DNA from: Octopus sinensis
Taxonomy: Eukaryota
Assembly (NCBI RefSeq): GCF_006345805.1
Contig: NW_021832452.1
Location: forward strand, 1-31,201
Direction: 5' to 3'
DNA length: 31,201 nt
Every line of letters begins with the position of its first letter. Positions within the stretch are counted from its first letter, which is position 1. The notes beneath the pieces were generated by a model. The model saw nothing but the letters and a program-made list of their open reading frames with translations. It was not told the origin of the DNA and ran no database searches. The position numbers and the translations under genes were made by a program. Of the stretch, positions 7,800 through 29,415 are shown one piece after another.

Positions 7800-10700
7800 A
7801 AAACAAAGGCTGAAAATATTCAGACGAATATTCATATATAGATATATGTTAACAGAGCTGACTTACATAGAGTACAGACAAAAAATTAAGGGGAGAAGGT
7901 ATGGAATTACAGGTCCAACAACTGATTCTGAGGACTCACGATTATGTCATAAAGTAGTTTGCAAAACCTCAAGGATATACAACCAGTAGTGGAAGCATAT
8001 AGTCATTAGGTAAATTCAGCCTCCATCTTCAGTGTGGCGAAATAGGTATATCTCCACCCTGGAGACAGAGGTTTGATGGTAGTGAAACTTGAACTGTGAA
8101 TGCAGAGCGCTAGATGGAAATGAAACTAGCATACTCTGATGAATGTGCAATGTCAGTGTGATGTACAACAAAGTACAAATGTACTAAGAGAAAAATTAGG
8201 CATGAGAAGAATCAGATGTATCTGTGTAGGAGAGAAGATTGCTCTGGTATGCAGATGGATGAGGACAACTGTGTGAAGAAGTGCTGATTGCTAAATGTGG
8301 AAGAGGAAGATGTGTGATGAACTGGTGAAGACTATTGTTTCTGGAAAATTTGCAGTGAGACAAATTTGCCGTATGGACGATGATAAAGTGGATTATATCA
8401 GCATGAAAAAAAGTAAAACAAATGTATGATTAAAAGTTTTATAAAAGTATTAAATAGGCGTAGGAGTGGCTGTGTGGTAAGTAGCTTGCTTACCAACCAC
8501 ATGGTTCCAAGTTCATTCCCACTGCGTGGCACCTTGGGCAAGTGTGTTCTACTATAACCTCGGTCAAACCAAAGTCTTGTGAATGGATTTGGTAGATGGA
8601 AACTGAAAGAAGCCTGTCATATGTATATATATATATATGTGTGTGTGTTTGTCCCACCCCCAACATCGCTTGACAACCGATTTTGGTGTGCTTATGTCTC
8701 CGTAACTTAGCAGTTCAGTAAAAGAGACTGATAGAATAAGTACTAGGCTTACAAAGAATAAGTCCTGGGGGTCAATTTGCTCGACTAAAGGCAGTTCTCC
8801 ACCATGGCCACAGTCAAATGACTGAAACAAGTAAAGAGAGTAGGTAAGTCTTCATTCAATGTCAAACATTAAAAAAAAACATTACGAGTCATTTAAAATG
8901 AAATTTGTTATGGCGAATTTTCCTACAGTAAAAATGTTTATGACAAAGTTTCCTATAACCCCTCAAGATATTGAAACTATATATATACTCTTTACTCTTT
9001 TACTTGTTTCAGTCATTTGACTGTGACCATGCTGGAGCACCGCCTTTAGTCGAGCAAAGCAACCCCAAGACTTATTCTTTGTAAGCCTAGTACTTATCCT
9101 ATCGGTCTCTTTTGCTGAACCGTTAAGTTACGGGAACGTAAACACACCAGCGATGTTGGGGGGACAAATACAGACATACACATATACGATGGGCTTCTTT
9201 CAGTTTCCATCTACCAAATCCACTCACAAGACTTTGGTCGGCCCGAGGCTATAGTAGAAGACACTTGCCCAAGGTGCCACGCAGTGGGAATGAACTCGGA
9301 ACCATGTGGTTGGTAAGCAAGCTACTTACCACACAGCCACTCCTACACCTATCAGTAATGATTTTAGCATGATGGCAGAAGGTCCATCAAGTGTCACCCG
9401 TTAGCATCATAGTTTGGCAAGCCATCCCAGAGGAGTTAAAGATGCTTTTGTGAACTGCTATGAGGTAGCTCTTATAGCTGAATTTCTAGTAGGATTAGAG
9501 AAGAAATTCCAGATATAGAACCAAAACTTAGAATCTAGAAACCTGAGTAAAAGATGGGATAAATTTCTTGTTATATTTGGAATTAAGTCTTGTGTTTGTA
9601 GTGGATTTTAATGCTAAGCTTTCTTTTGAGCAGAAATTGCAAGGTCTCTTGTTGACAATATTTATCTTCACCCTGGATACAATTTTCCATTTTAGCATAT
9701 CGTTAGTATTCTTCCCTTTTAACTCCTATATACCTGTTTACATCATCCATCTTCTTTGCATACATGGGTAGGACGGTTGACAGGAGCTGGCCAGGTAGAA
9801 AAACTACCTTAGGCTACTGTGTCTGTTTTGGCAGGGTTTTTGTGGCTGGATGCTTTTTACATTGGTTTCATTTCTTTCTATTCAGGTTCCTAAATGTGTG
9901 AATGTGTTTGTTGCGAAAAAGTTTAAATGGTGAAGAAGTGGAACCAACATATACGTGTTTGTGTGTGTAAATATTATGGGTAATCATTTTCAACTATATA
10001 CAACGCTAATGCTACTTTTAATTCATCGGTATCATTGTATTGGTAGAGTAGATTATTAATGTATTTATGGTCTAAAGAGCAGTTACTAGGATTAATGTAG
10101 TTTTAATTGGTATTCTTGTATATGTTAGCTTAATTGGATAACTTGAGCTCTTACAGACCACAACACACTAGGGTTTTATGAAATTAAGTGTAATGCAGGA
10201 AGAAAATTTTTGAGTGTTATAAAAAAAAAACTCTATCATATCTATGATATTGTGTTAACCACTCCTAAAGACAGGACTCCATTGTAGTATAATGCTGGTT
10301 AATTAAATATTTGTATAATGGGAAAATTTTGGTTTCTAAGGAAAATATTCTTAACAAGATTATTTTCTGGTGGTTAGGTAGAAAGTATATGTAGTGTAAG
10401 GACTCAATTTGTTTCCTAACAGGATATCAGAGTGAATAAGAATGGTCTTATGCTAGATCTAGGAAGCCCACTTCATGAATGTTGGCCTCAATAATGATAG
10501 TGAAACCAAACTTCTGTGAAGAACAAGAGTAGGTCATTTTTGATTCTGTCAGTCCACTGTGGATTGTAGTTACTAAATAACAAAAGGCCATAATCTTGGT
10601 ATAGGTCTCCTTTTTAATGCTGGAAGTAAGAAAAAGACGAATGAGAGTAGTGTTTGTGTAGGGGTTTTTGAATGTATGAATCATCTTGGTGCCTTAAAAT

Positions 10701-12346: not shown

Positions 12347-15300
12347 CACACACACACACACATGCTTACATATGTCTATTTTATAAGCTTCTGCATACTT
12401 TCACCTGATGCTTTTATGGAAGTGTGCCATGCTGTAACATTGAATCTGGACCCATGTATTTGCAAGGTTCCTCCTTTCTTGGACCTTATTCAACCCTTAG
12501 TAAATCCTACATTTCACATGCAAAAAAAGGACATCTAGCAGATGCTATTAATCTGCTTGAATCTTCAACAATTTCTCTCTTTCTCAACTGAAATTCTCCT
12601 ATATGTTGAAATTATGCTTCTTGGACTAAAGTTTTGGATGTCCTTTTTCTAGTGTAATAAAACCTATTTTCTTCAATGCAATTCTTTCTCACTGTAAACA
12701 AAATCTCTCATCTATTGCAAAGGGGCAAAGCATCTGTGATGTTTATTTCACTATCTAGATCAGTGAGTCCCAACATGGGGCTTGGTAAAATTAAGATGAG
12801 TTGGGATCCCATTCTCTTTTTTTTTTAAGTGGGACATGGAATTGTGAAAATTTTTATTTCACAGCAAACATACACCTATACTCAGCCTAGCCAAACTAAT
12901 CCTTCCAACCAAGCATACTGTCTGAAGACTGATTGCTACAGTATAATGCTATTCTAATGCTCCAGTATGGATATTTCTTTAAAGACATTTCATCTTTGAG
13001 GTATGCATTTTTCTGGAAAGTTATAGTGGAACCTAGGAGAAAATAGGTTGGGAAACACTGATGTAGATAATTTGTCTGTTTTTTTTTTTCTTTCTTTTAG
13101 ATTGTAATGTTGGTACTTGCTTGGAAGCTTGCAGCTAAAAGTATGGGATTTTTTACATCCCAAGAATGGCTCAAAGGAATGTCAGAACTACAGTAAGCTA
13201 AATTTTAATGTTTTTTTTTACATACAACTTTTAAAAACGTACCTTATTTAATTATTACAGTGTTTAGTGTAAGTACAGTTAATAGGTAAAAACCAGACCA
13301 GATTGTTTATTGTCTGGAACTTTTGAGTTTAAATTCCACTTGAATAGCTTTTGCCTTTCATCAATTAAATTAAAAGAATAAACAAAAATTGTAGTTGTGA
13401 TCCCTGTGCCGGTGGCACGTAAAAGGCACCATTCGAACGTGGCCGATGCCAGCGCCGCCTTGACTGGCTTCCGTGCTGGTGGTACGTAAAAAGCACCAAT
13501 CCGATTGTGGCCGTTGCCAGCCTCACCTGGCATGTAAAAAGCACCCACTAAACTCACGGAGTGGTTGGCGTTAGGAAGGGCATCCAGCTGTAGAAACACT
13601 GCCTGATCAGACTGGAGCCTGGTGCAGCCTTCTGGTGTCCCAGATCCCGGTCAAACCATCCAACCTATGCTAGCATGGAGAATGGACGTTAAACGATGAA
13701 ACTAGTATAATGGTGTAAGTTGAATATCTACTCCAATAATATGAGTTACATATACAATATATTTAACTTTTGCTTATTTAGGTTTTCAAGCTGTAAACAT
13801 GTATATTTCATGACTAGATATAAGTTACTGCAGCCTAGGTTATGATCTCTGAATAATCAACAAATATTTCATTAAGATGTAGAGTCTGAGACCAGGATCT
13901 GTTGATGTGGGTGATGATAGAAGTACTTACATTGACATTGTTTCAACCAAATTGAGTTGTCTTTGTGCCTAATGAATACTAAAATATTCATTTTGGAGGA
14001 TGCAGAAGTGTAGGCAATAACTATTGTTACAAACTAAAATTGTTTTATTAATGATGCTGCTTATAAAGAGTGTATACTTGTCCTTTTAATTCATTAAATC
14101 TCCATTTTTTTTTCAGATGTGATACAACTTCAAAATTACGTAAGAAGTTAGATTTCATCCGGTTATATCTCAATGATCAAGTACATTTTAAAAGTATTTA
14201 CCGATATGCCTATGATTTTGCTAAGGTAAGAGGATATAAATTAAAGTAAAAAGCATACAATTAAAGAATAAACTTAATTTAAATATGAATTCTTCAAATA
14301 TTCTGGTGAATTCCATTGTTTTTAGATTAAAGAAATAACATAAGCCTTTTGTATTTGACAAATATAATTAAAAAAGAATTTTACAAAATAGAAACTCCAA
14401 ATATGATAATATATAAGCTATGACTTTGCATAGAGTCTAATTTAGCCAAGACCAACCAACCCTGAAATTGAAATAATATATTTCTAAATCTCTCAGAGAT
14501 ATTTATGCAGTTGCAGCACAATAAAGTGATAGCATGTTGTCAACTTAATGTGACAGTTCCATGAAAGGGAAGAATGCTACTGTTATTTAGCCCTAGGAAA
14601 CATCGCTTCCTGTTGGACTTGACACATTTCCTGTGTCTTTATGTCTTCAAAGTGGAGACAAGCACCTCCACCCAACAAAACCAGCAACCAGAGACTAGTT
14701 TCAGAGTCATTGCTCATCATCAGTCTGGAGTAGCATGGCTTGCTAGCTTGATTTTTTAATTTTTTTTATTATTACTGACATAAGGCCTAAACACAGGACA
14801 TGCTGGAACAAAAAACACTTGAAAGGATGAATCTGAAATGAATAAAATTACAATGCAAATGAGACGGCCATCTCACTCCTGCTGCTTGATTATTACAGGC
14901 ACAAGGCCTAATTACAGAGGGGACATACAAAGACATGCAGGAACATAAAACATATGAAGGATGAATGTGAAATGAATAAGATTATAATGCAAATGAGATG
15001 GCCATCTTGCTCCCACTGTGAGATGAAACCGTGGATTCCTTTTCTTTAACTTTTACACAACCTCTAGCCATGCACCGAGGCGAAACTGCGACTTCCCTTT
15101 TTGCTTTTGTTTTACAATTAAACACCTTTTAAACAATTGTTCATACAAGATTTACTTCTTATTTTTTCCTTTTTTTCAAACTAAAGTCAACCAAATATAT
15201 ATTCCAGTATTTTTTACAAACATTTTGGAAACCTGTTCATTCAATAATTACAAAATTTACTTGTTTTTCCTTTTTTTTATCCTTAAAAGTTCTAACAAAT

Positions 15301-18300
15301 ATGTTTTACAGTCACAGTGTTTACAAGATTACATCGACTTACCTCTTCTGTCTCTCACAATTCCTTTCACTTTTACAATCTTTTACGTTGGGGTGTCCCA
15401 TCTCACTATAATTTCCCTTTTGTTTGTGTTTTTCATGTTGTCTCTTTTTGTTTCTATTTTCCTGCTGTTTTGCCTGTTCTTATATTTTCGTCTCTAAGTC
15501 TGTGTGTTCATGTATTTGTGTGTGTTCGTTTGAATGCAACTCTACGTGTTTCATCTGTGTGTCTATGTTTTTAGGTTTCTGTAATTCTGGGTTGTCTTGT
15601 TTCTGGTCTGAATGACTCTGTCCTTTTAATTCCTTTGCTGGTATTTCCACTGGTAAATTTTCTCCGTTTCTCATTGTGGGTTGGATTTCTTCTTCCATTC
15701 CTTTACTCTTCTTCAAGTTCACTGTCATTAGTGACTTTCTTCTCTCTCGCTTCCTGGGTTTTACGTCCACAAAATTCCCATCAAATTCTAATTTTTGTTT
15801 CTGCTTTTTTTCCACCACTACATCTTCCTGAGCACACTCTTCCACCATTTCCACTGCTGCTCTAGGGCATTTCCTTCTCAAGTGCCCTCTTTTACCACAT
15901 CTGTAGCATTTTGGGGGTCTCCCCTCCAACATTACTTCCAGTTTTTCATTGTTTGGTAATTCCAAAGTTTCTGCCATTTCATCATAATATTTTGGGCTTA
16001 CCACACAGATTATTTCAATATCATAGCCCCAATAATTCAATTGTGTTCTGCCTACTATACCAATCTTCAGGTTTTCTCCATTCTTCCTCAGCTCAGAATT
16101 AAAAGTTGCGGTTATTACCCATTCTGGGTGTATCAATGGTGGGATTCTTCCCATTCTGACCCTGACAATTCTTTTGCCCCAATAGTTCGGCATCAATGTC
16201 CATTTCTTTCCATATAACATCATGTTGCCGGATATTTTTGCCTCCTCTTCTGAAAGAAAGGTTACTACAATAGTTCTATATCTTCTACCTCTTGTAAAAA
16301 ACGTTATCTTCTCTCCCATGTTCACTACTAGCATTTCCTCTATCTCTTCAAGGTACATGTTCTATCCTCCCATTTTCATTTGAGAATGTTCTGAATATTA
16401 CCACTTGCTTTCCATTTTTCTTTTTTCCTCCTCTGGCAGGGTCATTTTTATGTTTGACCCTTCTTTCTTTATATTCTCACAATATTTAGTTAGCTTCTCT
16501 TCATTCCACTCCATCATCTCCGGCTTCAGCACATGTGGGTCTATTATTCACTTCCACCCAAACAATGGTGGCTTCGCATAAAATATTTCGCTTTGAATTC
16601 TTCAAAAAACAACAAAAAGCTTGGCTTGCTAGTTGTTGATACCTATCTGCCTTTGAAAACATATATATTTCAAGTGAAATACATTCACTGATTTTTGAAA
16701 ATAAAAATAATATATTTCCAAATCTCTCAGAGAGTTATGCAGTAGCAGCACGATAAAATGGTAGCATGTTGTCAACTTAATGTGACAGTCCCATAAGGAC
16801 ACAGGAAATGTGTCAAGTCCAACAGGAAACAGTGTTTCCTAGGGCTAAATAACAATAGCATTCTTCCCTTTTATGGGACTGTCACATTAAGTTGACAACA
16901 TGCTATCACTTTATCATGCTGCAACTGCATAACTCTCTTTGAGAGATTTAGAAATGTATTATTTCTATTTTCAAAAATCAGTGAATGTATTTCACTTGAA
17001 ATACATATGTTTTCAAAGGCTGATAGGCATTGACAGCTAGCAGGCCATGCTACTCCAGACTAACAATGAGCAATGACTTTGAAATTAGTCTCTGGTTGCT
17101 GGTTTTGCTGGGTGGAGGTGTTTGTCTCCACTTTGAAAACATAAGGACACAGGAAATGTGCCAAGTCCAACAGGAAACGGTGTTTCTTAGCCCTTTTATG
17201 GGACTGTCACATTAAGTTGGCAACATGCTATCACTTTAGCCCTGTAATTATTTACCAATGAGAATTACTCATTGGCTCTACTAAAGATGCTAGGCTTGTT
17301 CATTTCTGTGAGTCACTTGAAATACTCTTTTTGATATTTACTTGCTTGAAGAATTCTGTTTCATCAAGACTAATTGGTTGCTATAGATCAGAGTTGGGGA
17401 ACCTCACGGAATTTAACTACCTTCTCACAAGGCCACATTTGAAATTAAATGTAAAAAATTGAAAATAAAAAGAACTCTGCTAAACTAATTATTTTATGAA
17501 CAACAATTTTTCATAAAAGCTCTTAATATATATGAAAAATAACTGAGTTCTGGAATAAGCACCCCCACCATAAGATTTTCTTTCCTAAAAATTTCTTCAA
17601 ATTTCTGTTTTAAAACATAGTTGTTATTGCTTTAAACAATTATAAGTTTAGATTAAAAAATATTGATTCTAAAATTTTGCTATTATTTAAAAATAGACTT
17701 TAAATAAAATAAAATTAACAAAAATATATTCTAGTATAATGATTTGTCCTCTAACATTGTGCTTCTTTAAGAAGGCTACCCTTAATCCTTAAGATGGTTG
17801 CATGTAACCTTAGGGTTCTTGACATCAGGTATAAAACAATCCAATTCTACTGATTACCATGTGGGCCATCCTTCACATGTTTAGATAGTTATTAAGTTAG
17901 TGTGTTCAATCACACTTGATTGAAAGTTGAATATACTTTTATTTAGTTTTGTATTGGCTATCATTATTGTATTTGTCAGTGTATAAGATACACTCCTGCA
18001 TAAAACACACCCTGAGTATAAAACTACATTCCTTTGCCAAGCCATGTTGAGCCAGAGTGACAGAGTAGACTCATCAAACCTGTATGATCTCAAGCCTCAA
18101 ATTCATGGCCTTCACATCAGACTGTGGTTGAGTGGGGAGAATATTCTTAGGCCATCGTCCTGCAGTTGACTGAAATTAGGCAATCCAATCCAATCTAGTT
18201 TTAATGAAAGAAGTCAAAAATATTATGAAATTGTAAATTCCCAATATACCAATATCTGCTTAATTTATGCCATGGGAACTTTTTAACTGCTCATTTCCAT

Positions 18301-20883
18301 TACAAATGAGTATTTATTTAATTTGCTATATGATGTGTGAAAATAACTCATTGATTCAAAAAATTAATAAAATGTTGATGTATTTTCTTTCATCTGATTT
18401 TGTAGGACAAAGACCAGAGAAGCATGGATATAGAAACTGCTAAAGCAATGTTATCACTGTTGTTAGGGAAACATTGGACATTGCACAGCTCTTTTCATCA
18501 ATTTCTAGAGGTCAGTGAATTGCCCTTGAGTTATAGTTTAGACAAGGTGTATTTTGGAGCTATGTGCCCATAAATATAAACAAATATCTCAATAAACACA
18601 CTCATTATCTATCTCATATATATGTGTGTGTGTGTGTAAAATATTTTTTCTGTTTTTATTTCTTAAATCTGATGCAATGAAAATCTATCAAGTGTGTTTG
18701 TGTGTCTTCCATCAACATCTAACATGTTTTTCATGCTGGCATGATTTGGACGGTTAGACAGAACCCAGTGAACCGTGGATCTGTGTTGAGCTTCCAAGTC
18801 AGCTTTGATTGGGTTTCTATGGCTGGATGCCTACTTAATACCAACCACTTTACAGAATGTGCTGGGTGCCATCAGCATTAGTGAAGTCACCAAGGACTTT
18901 GCAAGACAAAAAAGAACAGAAAAGGAGGAAAAGGCCTCTTCATCTAAATGGTGGGGATGGGGTAGTATTGCACATCACATCTAATTCCCCTTATGCCTAA
19001 CTTTTTCCTTGCACATCACTTCTAATTCTTCTTATGCCTAACTTTTCTCTCAGTATACTGTACACATGCTAGCTTCATTGCTCTTTAGTTTTTGCATGTC
19101 CACTACATTCAGAGTGCTTGTCTCACTACCACATAGCATTTCTCTGCATACACATGCATCAGACAATCTTCCTTTCACTTGAGGGGAGAGGCCTTTGGTT
19201 GCCAACAGAGGTAAAAGTTCTCTGATTTTTCTCCAACTTATTCTTATTCTAGCAATTACATTTTCCTTACATTTTTCCCCAATGCTAATTAGGCCCCCTT
19301 GGTTGCAGAAATTAGCCACTATGTCTAGAGAGCCTCTGAGACATTAGAGAAAATTTCTCAAGTGTCTGTAGCTTTTATGACTTCTGAGCATTTTCTGCAT
19401 ACAAACATAACTTTCCACGATAACCTTCCTATTATTTCACTGCACCTCTTGTATGTCTATAGCTTGCACAGGGTACACCATATGGAATTCTTCTCTACAC
19501 CTTTCCTTCATATCAAACAGGGCTATTTACTTGATGGGATAGGGTCCTGTGTATTTTCTTGCTTACAAGAACCTTGGTCTTTGCTAAGTTAACCTAAACC
19601 TGAGCTGGGGTGAATAGTATTGAGGGAGACAGCTTTATGCCAGGGGAAGAGGAAATGTTAAAGTATGGTTGAAAGACAGGAACAGGTGTCTTGCTGTTGG
19701 GGAGATATGCTTATCCCAGCTGAAAGGCAAAGAGGATAGTTGTAAAGGTGTGTCAGGGCGTTACCCTCACCCACCGAGTTACAGGAAGGTGAATAACAGA
19801 ATTGGCATGGATGGGTATGTAAGTTCATGGAGTGCACGAGGTAAATAAGCTTTTCTCTGACTATAATTAGTTTGGTTTTGTAATATAGCAATCATGCTTG
19901 CGCACGTGCACAGACACACACACACAAAATTGCTGTGTATAGCAGGCACATTTCCATGTGTGAGTATAACAATCTTTTTTTTTTCTTTGCAGCAATCAAA
20001 ATACAAAGTTATAAACAAGGACCAATGGTGTAATATATTGGAATTTAGTCGAACAATCTACCCAGATCTTTCAAACTATGATGAAGATGGGGCTTGTAAG
20101 TATTTTAGATAATTTTTTTTTCCATTTTCTTTTTACTTTTGTTAGAATTTTTTTAACTAAAACCATTTGAATTGAAACAGGAAGAAAATTATTTTAACAA
20201 CACACATCATGCCATTCACTTAGTTGTGGTTGACCATAGAATTTGATGATAACCATCTTCAATTGAAGATTCTTTGTTTATTGTATAGCGTGATTCTTGA
20301 TGTGCAGCACTTTTTATTGTAGTCTAGACACAAATGTAATGTTTGTATGCAGAAAATGCTCAGAAGTCATAAAAGCTACAGACACTTGAGAAATTTTCTC
20401 TAATGTCTCAGAGGCTCTCTAGACGTAGTGGCTAATTTCTGTAACCAAGGGGACCTAATAAAGTTGCCAGGTATTAATTTGCATGCAGGACTTTTCTCTG
20501 GCTTCTTCTTCTAATAGTGCTGAGTGCATTTCTTCTCCATATCTGCAATCCCTCTCCAGCAATGAGATCTATTCTGTCCATTCTTGAAGGGTTGATGTTG
20601 CTCTTCTTTATATTAGTCTTCAACTGGTCTTTCAACTAACACTTTCGTATTCCATCCAGCTGATGCTGAAGGTGTACCTGAATGTAAAGTCTCATATGGA
20701 AGAGATGTGAGTCAGACATGCACACTACATTTCCTAGACATTTTAGTTAATGTTTGTACAGCATGACTTCAGTGCTGCTCATATTGGTCTGAAAGAGGAT
20801 TTCTGTGTTCAGTATGTCTGCCTGCCTGTCTGTCTATAATATCTGTCTGTCTATCTAAAATATCTGTCTGTCTATCTATAATA

Positions 20884-28130: not shown

Positions 28131-29030
28131 ATGTTTACCAGTGCAAACTGGTATTCGGAATTGAGTTTCTTTATGTTGAAAGTGATAACTTAGCCTTTTG
28201 ATAATTAGAAAGTGATAAAGATTAGTAAAAGACTGAAATGCTAGGGTTGTTCATGACTGACTAAAATCCTTGAAGGCAGTGCCTCAACATAGTCACATTC
28301 CAGTGACTTAAACCAGTATAAGAATATAAAAAGGAAAGAGAGTATGTGTGTGCATGTATACTGATGTGTGTTTGCGTGTGTTTTAAAGTATTCCACACAA
28401 GTAAATTTTTCTTAAAAGAACGCAAAGAAAAAAATGCTTGTATTGTCAATGAAAAGAACGTATTGATGTTTCTATAATCAAAATATGCTAATGGTTTCAA
28501 TCACTTTTACCGACAAATTAGTCATTCTGAAATAAATTAAATCCAATTAATCTTTGATGATATCAGTTCTAGAAGTTCTCATATTTTACAAACAGATGTT
28601 ACATGGTGCTGGTATTTTTCTTTCTGATTACTGCTTAGTTGTAATAGTAGCAGCAACAGCTGTTCAAGTCGTTACAATTTTCTAGACTATATTTCAGTCC
28701 TTTTGTTATAAATTCTTTTTTCAAGCAATAAAGAAGTTCACATGTATAAATTATATGACCAGAATTCAATGGTCTCAATTCCTAATTCATAAGAACGTTT
28801 GAATAAAGATTCACTACAGAGGATTTTTTATTGACTATTTTAGCATTATTATTATAATACGCTATATGTCTGTATAAATATGCTTTTTTTTTTGTAAGGA
28901 TTTGAAGCTGTTGAATTTGTTCTACTGTATAAGATTTACTTTGTAAGTCATTCAATACAAGCTAGAGTCATACTTTTTATTTTTTGTATACTTGTATGAT
29001 AATGCTTAATGAAACCTTATGAATGTTAAC

Positions 29031-29415
29031 GATTGTTTGCCAGCATAACATGGCAGTCCTGGTTTAGGACTAATGCTGCTGTAATTTAGCCCTAGGAGAC
29101 ATCGTCTCTAGCTGGCTATATGACACGATCTATGTCCTTATATTTTCGAACAAGAGAATCTAGCACCCCCACTCAGCTCAAAACAATATCTGTGTATTGC
29201 GATTTGTAGGTTATTTTCCTTCATCAGCACAAATAATTGTTCGGCTAGAGGTGGTGCTGCCAAATATATAGTTTTCAAAGTGACAACTAGTCACTGATTT
29301 AAAAATTAGAAAATATTTTTTAATTTTTAAATCTCACAATGTGTTATGTTGGCAAACAATCTTTACTACAAAGTACTGTTGCTGAATATCTCACATTGTG
29401 AGATTTAAAAATAGT
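29031..29415 (-). mobile_element. Hammerhead-like-motif repeat distantly related to the 348-bp unit
   Basis: Shares TTTAGCCCTAGGA(G/A)ACATCG, TGTCCTTAT, TTTTCAA(A)GTGA and CACTGATTT blocks with 14463-17238. Hammerhead-like motif at 29183-29240 (-). Inverted ends at 29031-29050 and 29342-29361. Confidence 0.6.

What the first reader, a model, noticed from the sequence alone, without database searches (positions are those of the whole stretch)
14463..17238. 348-bp tandem/inverted repeat carrying a minimal type I hammerhead ribozyme (candidate retrozyme or non-autonomous Penelope-like element)
Seen: a non-coding 348-bp unit runs about 1.3 copies forward, then flips at ~16792 into about 1.3 inverted copies. 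On the minus strand, 14688-14728 reads CCAGA CUGAUGA UGAGCAAUGACUCU GAAAC UA GUC UCUGG, with all core nucleotides, a closed stem I and a tiny palindromic stem III (ACUAGU). Established: minimal type I hammerheads with palindromic stem III that cleave as dimers, and tandem-plus-inverted insertions, characterise Penelope-like elements. Metazoan non-LTR retrozymes are tandem repeats of a few hundred bp that yield circular RNAs. Inference: this is a self-cleaving, circle-forming mobile RNA family that may be uncatalogued in this lineage. Stem II is weak (U-U closing), so this copy may be inactive.
Basis: partly seen in the sequence, partly recalled or inferred. Interest (0 to 1): 0.85.

Follow-up and report, generated by a model that had tools for sequence, protein, structure and literature searches.

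The report
Ribozyme repeat parasitised by targeted LINEs
This is a 348-base hammerhead-ribozyme repeat, likely copied around the genome by Penelope-type enzymes, and it is split by a second jumping gene from a lineage that repeatedly inserts just in front of such ribozymes, likely to borrow their promoter.

Summary
The hammerhead and the 348-nt unit are real. The hammerhead at 14688-14728(-) equals the family majority, U.U pair included, and its stems covary across 16 related sequences. Copies carry the Penelope-like (PLE) signature: outer ends at two fixed sites (174 of 190), head-to-head pairs using one of each (64 of 66), and 8-13 bp duplications. Long head-to-tail arrays, circles and an autonomous partner were not found; cleavage is untested. 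The new part is the insert. L1/Tx1-type families, some young and intact, land about 25-35 nt upstream of the hammerhead core, in sense, in several retrozyme families. A retrozyme directly follows 15, 22 and 12 of 30 LINE 3' ends in three families, 0 of 30 in a sister family, against 13 of 1730 control tiles with any hit. One copy carried the retrozyme's 15-nt leader into a U2 gene, pointing to promoter capture. Three loci suggest PLE enzymes also copy LINE-retrozyme chimeras. Verdict: known kind of element, apparently undescribed LINE target.

The parts
14460..14469 (+). Left target-site duplication of the whole head-to-head insertion (10 bp, one mismatch to the right copy)
   Evidence: Sequence; family duplications 8 bp or more in 45 of 66 pairs against 1.4% of shuffled flank pairs
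14465..14748 (-). 3' part of arm 1: unit positions 244-348 and 1-179, ending at distal end site B
   Evidence: 95% to family majority; end classes
14688..14728 (-). Type I hammerhead: intact core, U.U plus 3-bp stem II, palindromic 6-nt stem III, predicted cut between 14693 and 14692
   Evidence: cleavage not tested
14732..14746 (-). Downstream copy of the 15-bp LINE target duplication, in the 5' arm of extended stem I
14747..16617 (-). Nested 1,871-bp ORF1-only LINE derivative (family X), A-rich 3' end facing the hammerhead
   Evidence: ORF1 25-27% to ORF1 of intact APE+RT LINEs, E down to 1e-15
15480..16361 (-). ORF1 of the insert, 293 aa stop to stop, CCHC zinc knuckle at residues 151-166
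   Evidence: PF00098, E 4.9e-5
16618..16632 (-). Upstream copy of the LINE target duplication
16633..16796 (-). 5' part of arm 1 (unit 82-244), with a TATA-like stretch at 16656-16671 about 25-30 nt before the LINE site (promoter role inferred)
16792..17238 (+). Arm 2: unit 1-348 and 1-122, ending at proximal end site A; 23-nt deletion near 17190
17055..17095 (+). Decayed hammerhead of arm 2 (core and stem III mutated)
17240..17249 (+). Right target-site duplication of the whole insertion

Best explanation
The locus is a head-to-head pair of 1.3-unit arms of a dispersed 348-nt hammerhead repeat, likely pasted in by a Penelope-like reverse transcriptase and endonuclease, and later split by an L1/Tx1-type LINE derivative from a lineage that inserts at one fixed site just upstream of the hammerhead, likely the repeat's transcription start. 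Step 1 (inferred): a TATA-like promoter inside the unit starts RNA near unit position 244, which runs through the hammerhead and a row of hairpins. Step 2 (pattern shown, enzyme inferred): a PLE protein nicks both target strands 8-13 bp apart and primes cDNA at two internal RNA sites, A (about 120) from one nick and B (about 177) from the other, giving two 5'-truncated arms joined head to head. The template is uncut or re-circularised RNA, since arms run through the cut site. Step 3 (site preference shown, enzyme inferred): LINE endonucleases recognise the short sequence at the start site and insert in sense, behind the promoter and in front of the ribozyme. Step 4 (inferred from few loci): the LINE is transcribed from the captured promoter, and read-through RNA that reaches A and B can be copied by the PLE enzyme, LINE tail included.
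For: Ribozyme: 10 of 12 pairs with compensatory change, 87.9% of cells paired, 0 of 500 shuffles as high, slid controls 22-49% (16 hand-picked sequences); circular monomer z -8.6 against 60 shuffles. PLE signature: 174 of 190 outer ends at A or B, 64 of 66 classifiable pairs (of 79) A+B, duplications 8 bp or more in 45 of 66; matches the tail at one end (PMC8557442) and two RT start sites (PMC11167929). RT+GIY-YIG PLEs with open ORFs and palindromic-stem-III hammerheads in their 3' UTRs exist in this genome. Uncut or circular template: 29 of 94 arms span the hammerhead, 0 of 94 begin at the cut. Targeting: retrozyme profile hit directly behind 15 of 30 X, 22 of 30 A and 12 of 30 Y 3' ends, 0 of 30 B; 13 of 1730 control tiles have any hit; most other X and A ends are the target motif plus another LINE 5' end (10 and 6 by eye). 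Independent insertion: LINE bodies differ 1.0%, their downstream retrozyme flanks 3.5%, rho 0.14 (13 loci); 23 of 30 target sites are empty. Promoter capture: a family A copy at U2 +1 carries 15 nt of retrozyme leader after its own duplication. Co-copying: L180, L241, L367.
Against: No autonomous PLE sharing the unit's sequence was found next to its ORF in 50 GIY-YIG loci. Cleavage is untested, Rfam misses the motif, and 8 of 9 predicted Xenopus retrozymes did not cleave in vitro (bioRxiv 2026.07.22.740005). The start site is not mapped: the only read support is 6 molecule ends at that base in 1 of 3 raw runs. A strict intact-hammerhead detector scores only 3, 17 and 3 of 30 for X, A and Y because many copies are decayed. 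The A-B distance is about 55 nt, longer than the 30-40 nt tail in print. 18 of 30 Y-like ends are not directly followed by a retrozyme, and the Y query held 5 nt of target.
Confidence: 0.78

Rival explanations
1. Classical non-LTR retrozyme: tandem arrays release a 348-nt monomer by double self-cleavage, it circularises, and rolling-circle reverse transcription makes new copies. Compatible with the best explanation as to template, but makes the circle obligatory.
For: Very stable circular fold; arms longer than one unit, up to 675 nt; 16 of 94 arms include sequence upstream of the presumed start site, which a primary transcript of a short copy would lack; size as in mussel and axolotl.
Against: One exact two-core tandem in the assembly (a lower bound) and 2 of 176 arms with two hammerheads. 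Reads fall about equally in both directions, 84-88% run on into unlike sequence, no ends pile at the cut (cDNA libraries of a possibly different species can miss circles).
Confidence: 0.4
2. The LINEs sit in front of hammerheads only by hitchhiking: one old insertion in a master retrozyme was co-amplified by PLE enzymes.
For: L180, L241 and L367 have PLE-type arms that include the LINE 3' end; family A junctions are nearly identical and 18 of 20 fetched copies reach the 5' end or run off the stretch as a tandem.
Against: Different LINE families share one site in the 348-nt family; family X sits in at least five retrozyme families; flanks are three times as divergent as LINE bodies; LINEs stack in tandem, separated by the duplication alone; a 5'-truncated X copy has its own 16-bp duplication (L185).
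Confidence: 0.1
3. The LINEs do not read a retrozyme sequence but home to transcription start sites or open chromatin behind TATA boxes; retrozymes are only abundant, harmless promoters.
For: Target sequences differ among families; TATA-like boxes lie 20-35 nt upstream in all of them, also for two family B copies in other repeats (by eye); one copy hit U2 exactly at +1.
Against: Each family keeps one target motif; the U2 5' end shares six bases with family A's motif; family B keeps a different fixed motif in most of 30 copies.
Confidence: 0.25
4. The hammerhead is a dead relic and the repeat is an ordinary foldback or MITE-like element.
For: No Rfam hit; U.U at the base of stem II; U3.G8 cores in three of 16 related sequences.
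Against: Compensatory changes in stems I and II with a fixed core; variable inner junctions and two unequal outer ends do not fit terminal inverted repeats.
Confidence: 0.05

Closest known systems
Metazoan non-LTR retrozymes (Cervera and de la Pena 2020, PMC7229834; axolotl Rtz_353 with HHR_Amex2)
   Same: Non-coding unit near 350 nt, low GC, type I hammerhead with U.U at the base of helix II, self-paired circular fold, duplications longer than 4 bp.
   Different: No long arrays found; copies are dispersed 0.2-1.9-unit arms, mostly head to head. Stem III has a 2-nt loop (palindromic, PLE-like). Circles not shown. 'Octopus', 'cephalopod' and 'inverted' do not occur in that paper's main text.
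Penelope-like element pLTR and tail (Craig et al. 2021, PMC8557442; Anolis Poseidon PAc, PMC11167929); non-autonomous derivatives (Li et al., bioRxiv 2026.07.22.740005)
   Same: Partial tandems, inverted 5'-truncated partner, tail at one end only, two internal RT start sites, uncleaved RNA usable as template.
   Different: No ORF; tail about 55 nt; the two sites are paired one per arm in 64 of 66 insertions, whereas PAc in vitro showed no strand difference; partner PLE not identified. Li et al. sampled no mollusc.
Target-specific Tx1-clade LINEs: Tx1L in Tx1D, Tx1-Mar in Mariner-N4, Keno in U2 (Kojima 2015, PMC4494074; PMC4640811)
   Same: APE endonuclease, RT and zf-RVT in ORF2, zinc-knuckle ORF1, fixed site in a multicopy element, tandem stacking, transcription from the flank proposed for SINEU.
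   Different: The target is a ribozyme-bearing retroelement and a PLE 3' UTR (L280); the site lies between a TATA-like box and the hammerhead, in sense; the U2 hit is at +1, not Keno's nucleotide 39; co-copying by the host element's enzyme.
HAL1 (half-L1), recalled, from no call
   Same: ORF1-only LINE derivative mobilised in trans.
   Different: Here site-specific and of a Tx1-like lineage.

Membership tests
Type I hammerhead ribozyme | Core CUGANGA, GAAA, NUH with three covarying stems, stem I open | tested here: met
Type I hammerhead ribozyme | Site-specific self-cleavage | not testable with these tools
   No read-end pile at the cut, uninformative for cDNA libraries
Rfam hammerhead families | Covariance-model match | tested here: not met
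   No hammerhead family listed at E up to 5 or 10
Non-LTR retrozyme | 150-450 nt non-coding repeat unit with one type I hammerhead, duplication longer than 4 bp | tested here: met
Non-LTR retrozyme | Two or more consecutive units with complete hammerheads (Li et al. criterion for active) | tested here: not met
   Not at this locus; rare in the family: 1 exact place, 2 of 176 arms. Not filed as a classical active retrozyme
Non-LTR retrozyme | Abundant monomeric circular RNA | tested here: inconclusive
   Predicted fold z -8.6; reads low and not diagnostic
Non-autonomous Penelope-like element | Partial tandem plus inverted 5'-truncated copy | tested here: met
   79 of 111 loci head to head
Non-autonomous Penelope-like element | Tail at one end only (two RT start sites) | tested here: met
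   64 of 66 pairs A+B; about 55 nt rather than 30-40
Non-autonomous Penelope-like element | Sequence shared with the pLTR of an RT+GIY-YIG element | tested here: inconclusive
   None in sense behind the ORF in 50 loci taken from the top 150 of 5,029 candidates
Tx1 clade LINE (intact relatives of the insert) | ORF1 zinc knuckle; ORF2 with APE endonuclease and L1-type RT | tested here: met
   closest solved structure human L1 ORF2p, E 3e-61, R2 1e-25. The window insert itself has ORF1 only
Tx1 clade LINE (intact relatives of the insert) | Target-site specificity (over 20% of flanks, criterion in PMC4494074) | tested here: met
   15, 22, 12 of 30
Tx1 clade LINE (intact relatives of the insert) | RT groups with named Tx1 elements in a tree | not tested
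   No hit named Tx1 among those listed; the clade name is an inference

The most novel reading that the evidence does not exclude
An octopod Tx1-like LINE lineage has specialised on hammerhead retrozymes and Penelope pLTRs: it cuts at their transcription start, takes over their promoter, ends its RNA just before their ribozyme, is re-copied by the Penelope enzyme as a passenger, and has tracked the target sequence as retrozyme families diversified. The strict A+B pairing would be genomic proof that a PLE dimer primes one fixed RNA site per DNA strand.
Probability: 0.5. Interest if true: 0.82.

Novelty: new variant of a known kind. Interest (0 to 1): 0.7.

Why it matters
It adds ribozyme-bearing retroelements to the short list of targets of site-specific LINEs and suggests a three-level parasitism (PLE, retrozyme, LINE). 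Young intact ORF2 copies (98-99% alike) with different natural target motifs are a ready panel for studying how APE endonucleases change specificity. The two-site, one-per-arm rule ties an animal retrozyme mechanistically to PLE enzymes, a link so far argued from co-occurrence and pLTR similarity, and gives a minimal RNA for testing the open question of how PLE tandem/inverted insertions form.

Tried and rejected
Rfam scans: no hammerhead hit. Tandem Repeats Finder lists nothing in the interval. Search for an autonomous PLE with the same ends: a related hammerhead repeat lies head to head with a PLE ORF in L093 but across a (TA)n tract and absent from that PLE's 3' UTR, so not accepted as partner. 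The RT fragment in L256 is a separate nested LINE, not ORF2 of family X, though it led to the intact families. Run search: no RNA holder listed. Cofolding two hammerhead regions gave -30.6 against 2 x -12.3 kcal/mol but not a clean double hammerhead; not used. One search used a stem I pairing shifted by one column; one search is the corrected count, and its L103 row is misaligned. Search for 5'-truncated LINEs with duplications was mostly spoiled by later SINE insertions. Distant LINE relatives in metagenome contigs: 2 of 80 have a hammerhead anywhere, one about 185 nt behind the 3' end (L407); inconclusive. Earlier scan notes were not available. Dropped before counting: the window's own loci and duplicates, L141 (satellite), and L113 (probably wrongly flagged duplicate), 7 of 20 loci (off-site, truncated or deleted), and the upstream figure there is inflated by one tandem LINE, so only the downstream one is cited.
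Full report
Setting. The window is a whole contig of a 2.72-Gb genome. The closest named relative of a LINE ORF2 from this genome is from Argonauta hians, 65% over the RT region, so the host is likely an octopod (inference).

Observation. Self-comparison shows three pieces of one repeat: 14465-14748 and 16618-16796 on one strand, 16792-17238 on the other. Against a majority unit of 348 nt built from 55 other loci, the first two are unit 244-348/1-179 and 82-244, contiguous in the unit, and the third is 1-348/1-122. Between the first two lies a 1,871-bp insert with a 15-bp duplication, an A-rich 3' end and a 293-aa zinc-knuckle ORF. A 10-bp duplication with one mismatch flanks the whole.

The ribozyme. 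The motif at 14688-14728(-) matches the family majority; U.U at the base of stem II is the norm, and the copy in arm 2 is decayed. Rfam does not see it. Sixteen hand-picked hammerheads from related repeats and one PLE keep the core while stems change: 10 of 12 pairs have changes on both sides, 87.9% of cells pair, no shuffle of 500 reaches that, slid registers give 22-49%. Stem III is palindromic in 12 of 16 and too tight to close alone in this family, so dimer cleavage is likely (inference). Axolotl HHR_Amex2 has the same U.U and cleaves, better as a dimer (PMC7229834). The monomer folds as a circle at z -8.6. Twelve exemplars align over the whole hammerhead-to-tail region, so this is a superfamily.

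How it spreads. In 111 loci (55 picked by similarity, the rest by an exact 27-mer), 174 of 190 outer 3' ends fall at unit 105-128 (A) or 168-195 (B). Of 79 head-to-head pairs, 66 have both ends classifiable and 64 are A+B. Duplications of 8 bp or more flank 45 of 66, against 1.4% of mismatched flanks. This is the PLE tail present at one end only (PMC8557442), which PMC11167929 traced to two internal RT start sites. Arms cross the cut site freely and none of 94 in the pattern-picked set starts there, so the template is uncut or circular, as for PAc in vitro. Arrays are scarce: one exact two-core tandem, two such arms among 176. The genome has PLEs with open RT+GIY-YIG ORFs of 775-781 aa and hammerheads in several 3' UTRs, one with U.U, but none of 50 loci shares the unit behind its ORF.

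The nested element. Ten arms in other loci break at unit 243-244, nine of them next to A-rich 3' ends of at least three unrelated sequences. Taking 30 loci by the insert's own 3' end (one is the window), by eye 16 of the other 29 run straight into a hammerhead repeat of at least five families, 10 into the target motif plus another LINE 5' end, 3 into other sequence (two pairs of these come from the same clusters). Intact relatives were then picked by RT similarity alone; they have ORF1 with a zinc knuckle and ORF2 with APE, RT and zf-RVT, nearest to human L1 ORF2p among solved structures. Many sit in hammerhead repeats with 15-21 bp duplications starting 28-35 nt before the core, one in a PLE 3' UTR at 47 nt. 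A profile of the superfamily hits directly behind 15 of 30 X, 22 of 30 A, 12 of 30 Y and 0 of 30 B ends, and anywhere in 13 of 1730 control tiles (exemplars include A's target family). All direct hits are in sense, since only that strand was scored there. A strict detector of intact hammerheads gives 3, 17, 3 and 0 of 30. Family B is a sister lineage with another fixed target, which serves as a control.

Targeting or hitchhiking. Family A copies are 98-99% alike and mostly full length; their downstream flanks differ 3.5% against 1.0% for LINE 3' ends, without correlation (13 loci), and 23 of 30 target sites are empty. So most are separate insertions. Yet in L180 and L241 both head-to-head arms contain the LINE 3' end before the retrozyme part, and L367 joins a short inverted arm to a truncated LINE, which points to PLE copying of chimeric RNA.

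Promoter capture (inferred). A TATA-like box lies 20-35 nt before the site (by eye). One A copy sits at +1 of a U2 gene (Rfam 183.6 bits) and carries, after its own 14-bp duplication, 15 nt of the retrozyme target as a 5' leader, so its RNA began at that site in the donor. Six read molecules end at the same base of the 348-nt family in one of three raw runs, a weak hint.

Expression. Three RNA runs of one study, from a species label that is not the best DNA holder, give 429-558 reads in about 12 million, in both directions, 84-88% running on into unlike sequence, with no pile at the cut. This fits read-through of dispersed copies and neither shows nor excludes circles.

Literature. Seen: bioRxiv 2026.07.22.740005 parts 1-3 of 5 (supplements not seen); PMC11167929 parts 1-2 of 4; PMC7229834 parts 2-3 of 6 and passages; passages of PMC8557442, PMC4640811, PMC10886601; PMC4494074 passages and sections 15 and 20. 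Tx1 families are known to target DNA transposons, LTR elements, satellites, snRNA and microsatellites. Searches for Tx1 with hammerhead, ribozyme, Penelope or octopus (listings only) and for octopus hammerheads or retrozymes showed no report of this family or of LINEs targeting retrozymes. Repbase, subscription papers (Kojima and Fujiwara 2004; Cervera and de la Pena 2014) and the identity of the 'satellite' targets in PMC4494074 Fig. 3 were not seen and could hold a precedent. HAL1 and the Inr/TATA reading are recalled.

Verdict. The repeat works like a non-autonomous PLE with a retrozyme-type unit, a new member of a known kind; it fails the strict tandem criterion for an active retrozyme. 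The LINE targeting of hammerhead repeats is well supported in this genome and appears to be a new variant of Tx1-type specificity. Interest 0.7.

Noticed in passing
window 29030-29400 (-): A second, more distant member of the hammerhead superfamily with an empty LINE target site and a TATA-like box in front.
   Followed up: partly
L494:2000-2050 (same place as L292): Family A LINE inserted at +1 of a U2 snRNA gene, carrying a retrozyme leader.
   Followed up: yes
L141:3350-6730: Satellite of about 27 copies of a 125-bp piece (unit 29-153) of the repeat, without the hammerhead.
   Followed up: no
L296, L288, L286, L273; PLE 3' UTRs in L068, L091, L100, L104, L108: Hammerheads with U at position 3 (U3.G8 or U3-A8) conserved in whole families, including autonomous PLEs.
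   Followed up: no
L322-L346: Sister LINE family B inserts at a fixed motif of another repeat, clustered on contig C28 at 4.4-5.5 Mb and C2 at 195.3 Mb; target not identified.
   Followed up: no
L095:674-2113 (+), L098:5500-6939 (-): A 479-aa open frame overlaps the start of the 781-aa RT+GIY-YIG frame in a young PLE family; PLEs are described as single-ORF.
   Followed up: no
L407:4500-4768: Distant LINE relative in a metagenome contig whose 3' end lies about 185 nt before a canonical hammerhead; single case of 80.
   Followed up: partly
window 19288-20459 and 8454-9352: Inverted repeat pairs: 127 nt, 96% alike, 918 nt apart (MITE-like), and 189 nt, 90% alike, of a dispersed repeat.
   Followed up: no
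window 14765-15013: About 120-bp tandem duplication at the 3' end of the LINE insert, 76% alike.
   Followed up: no
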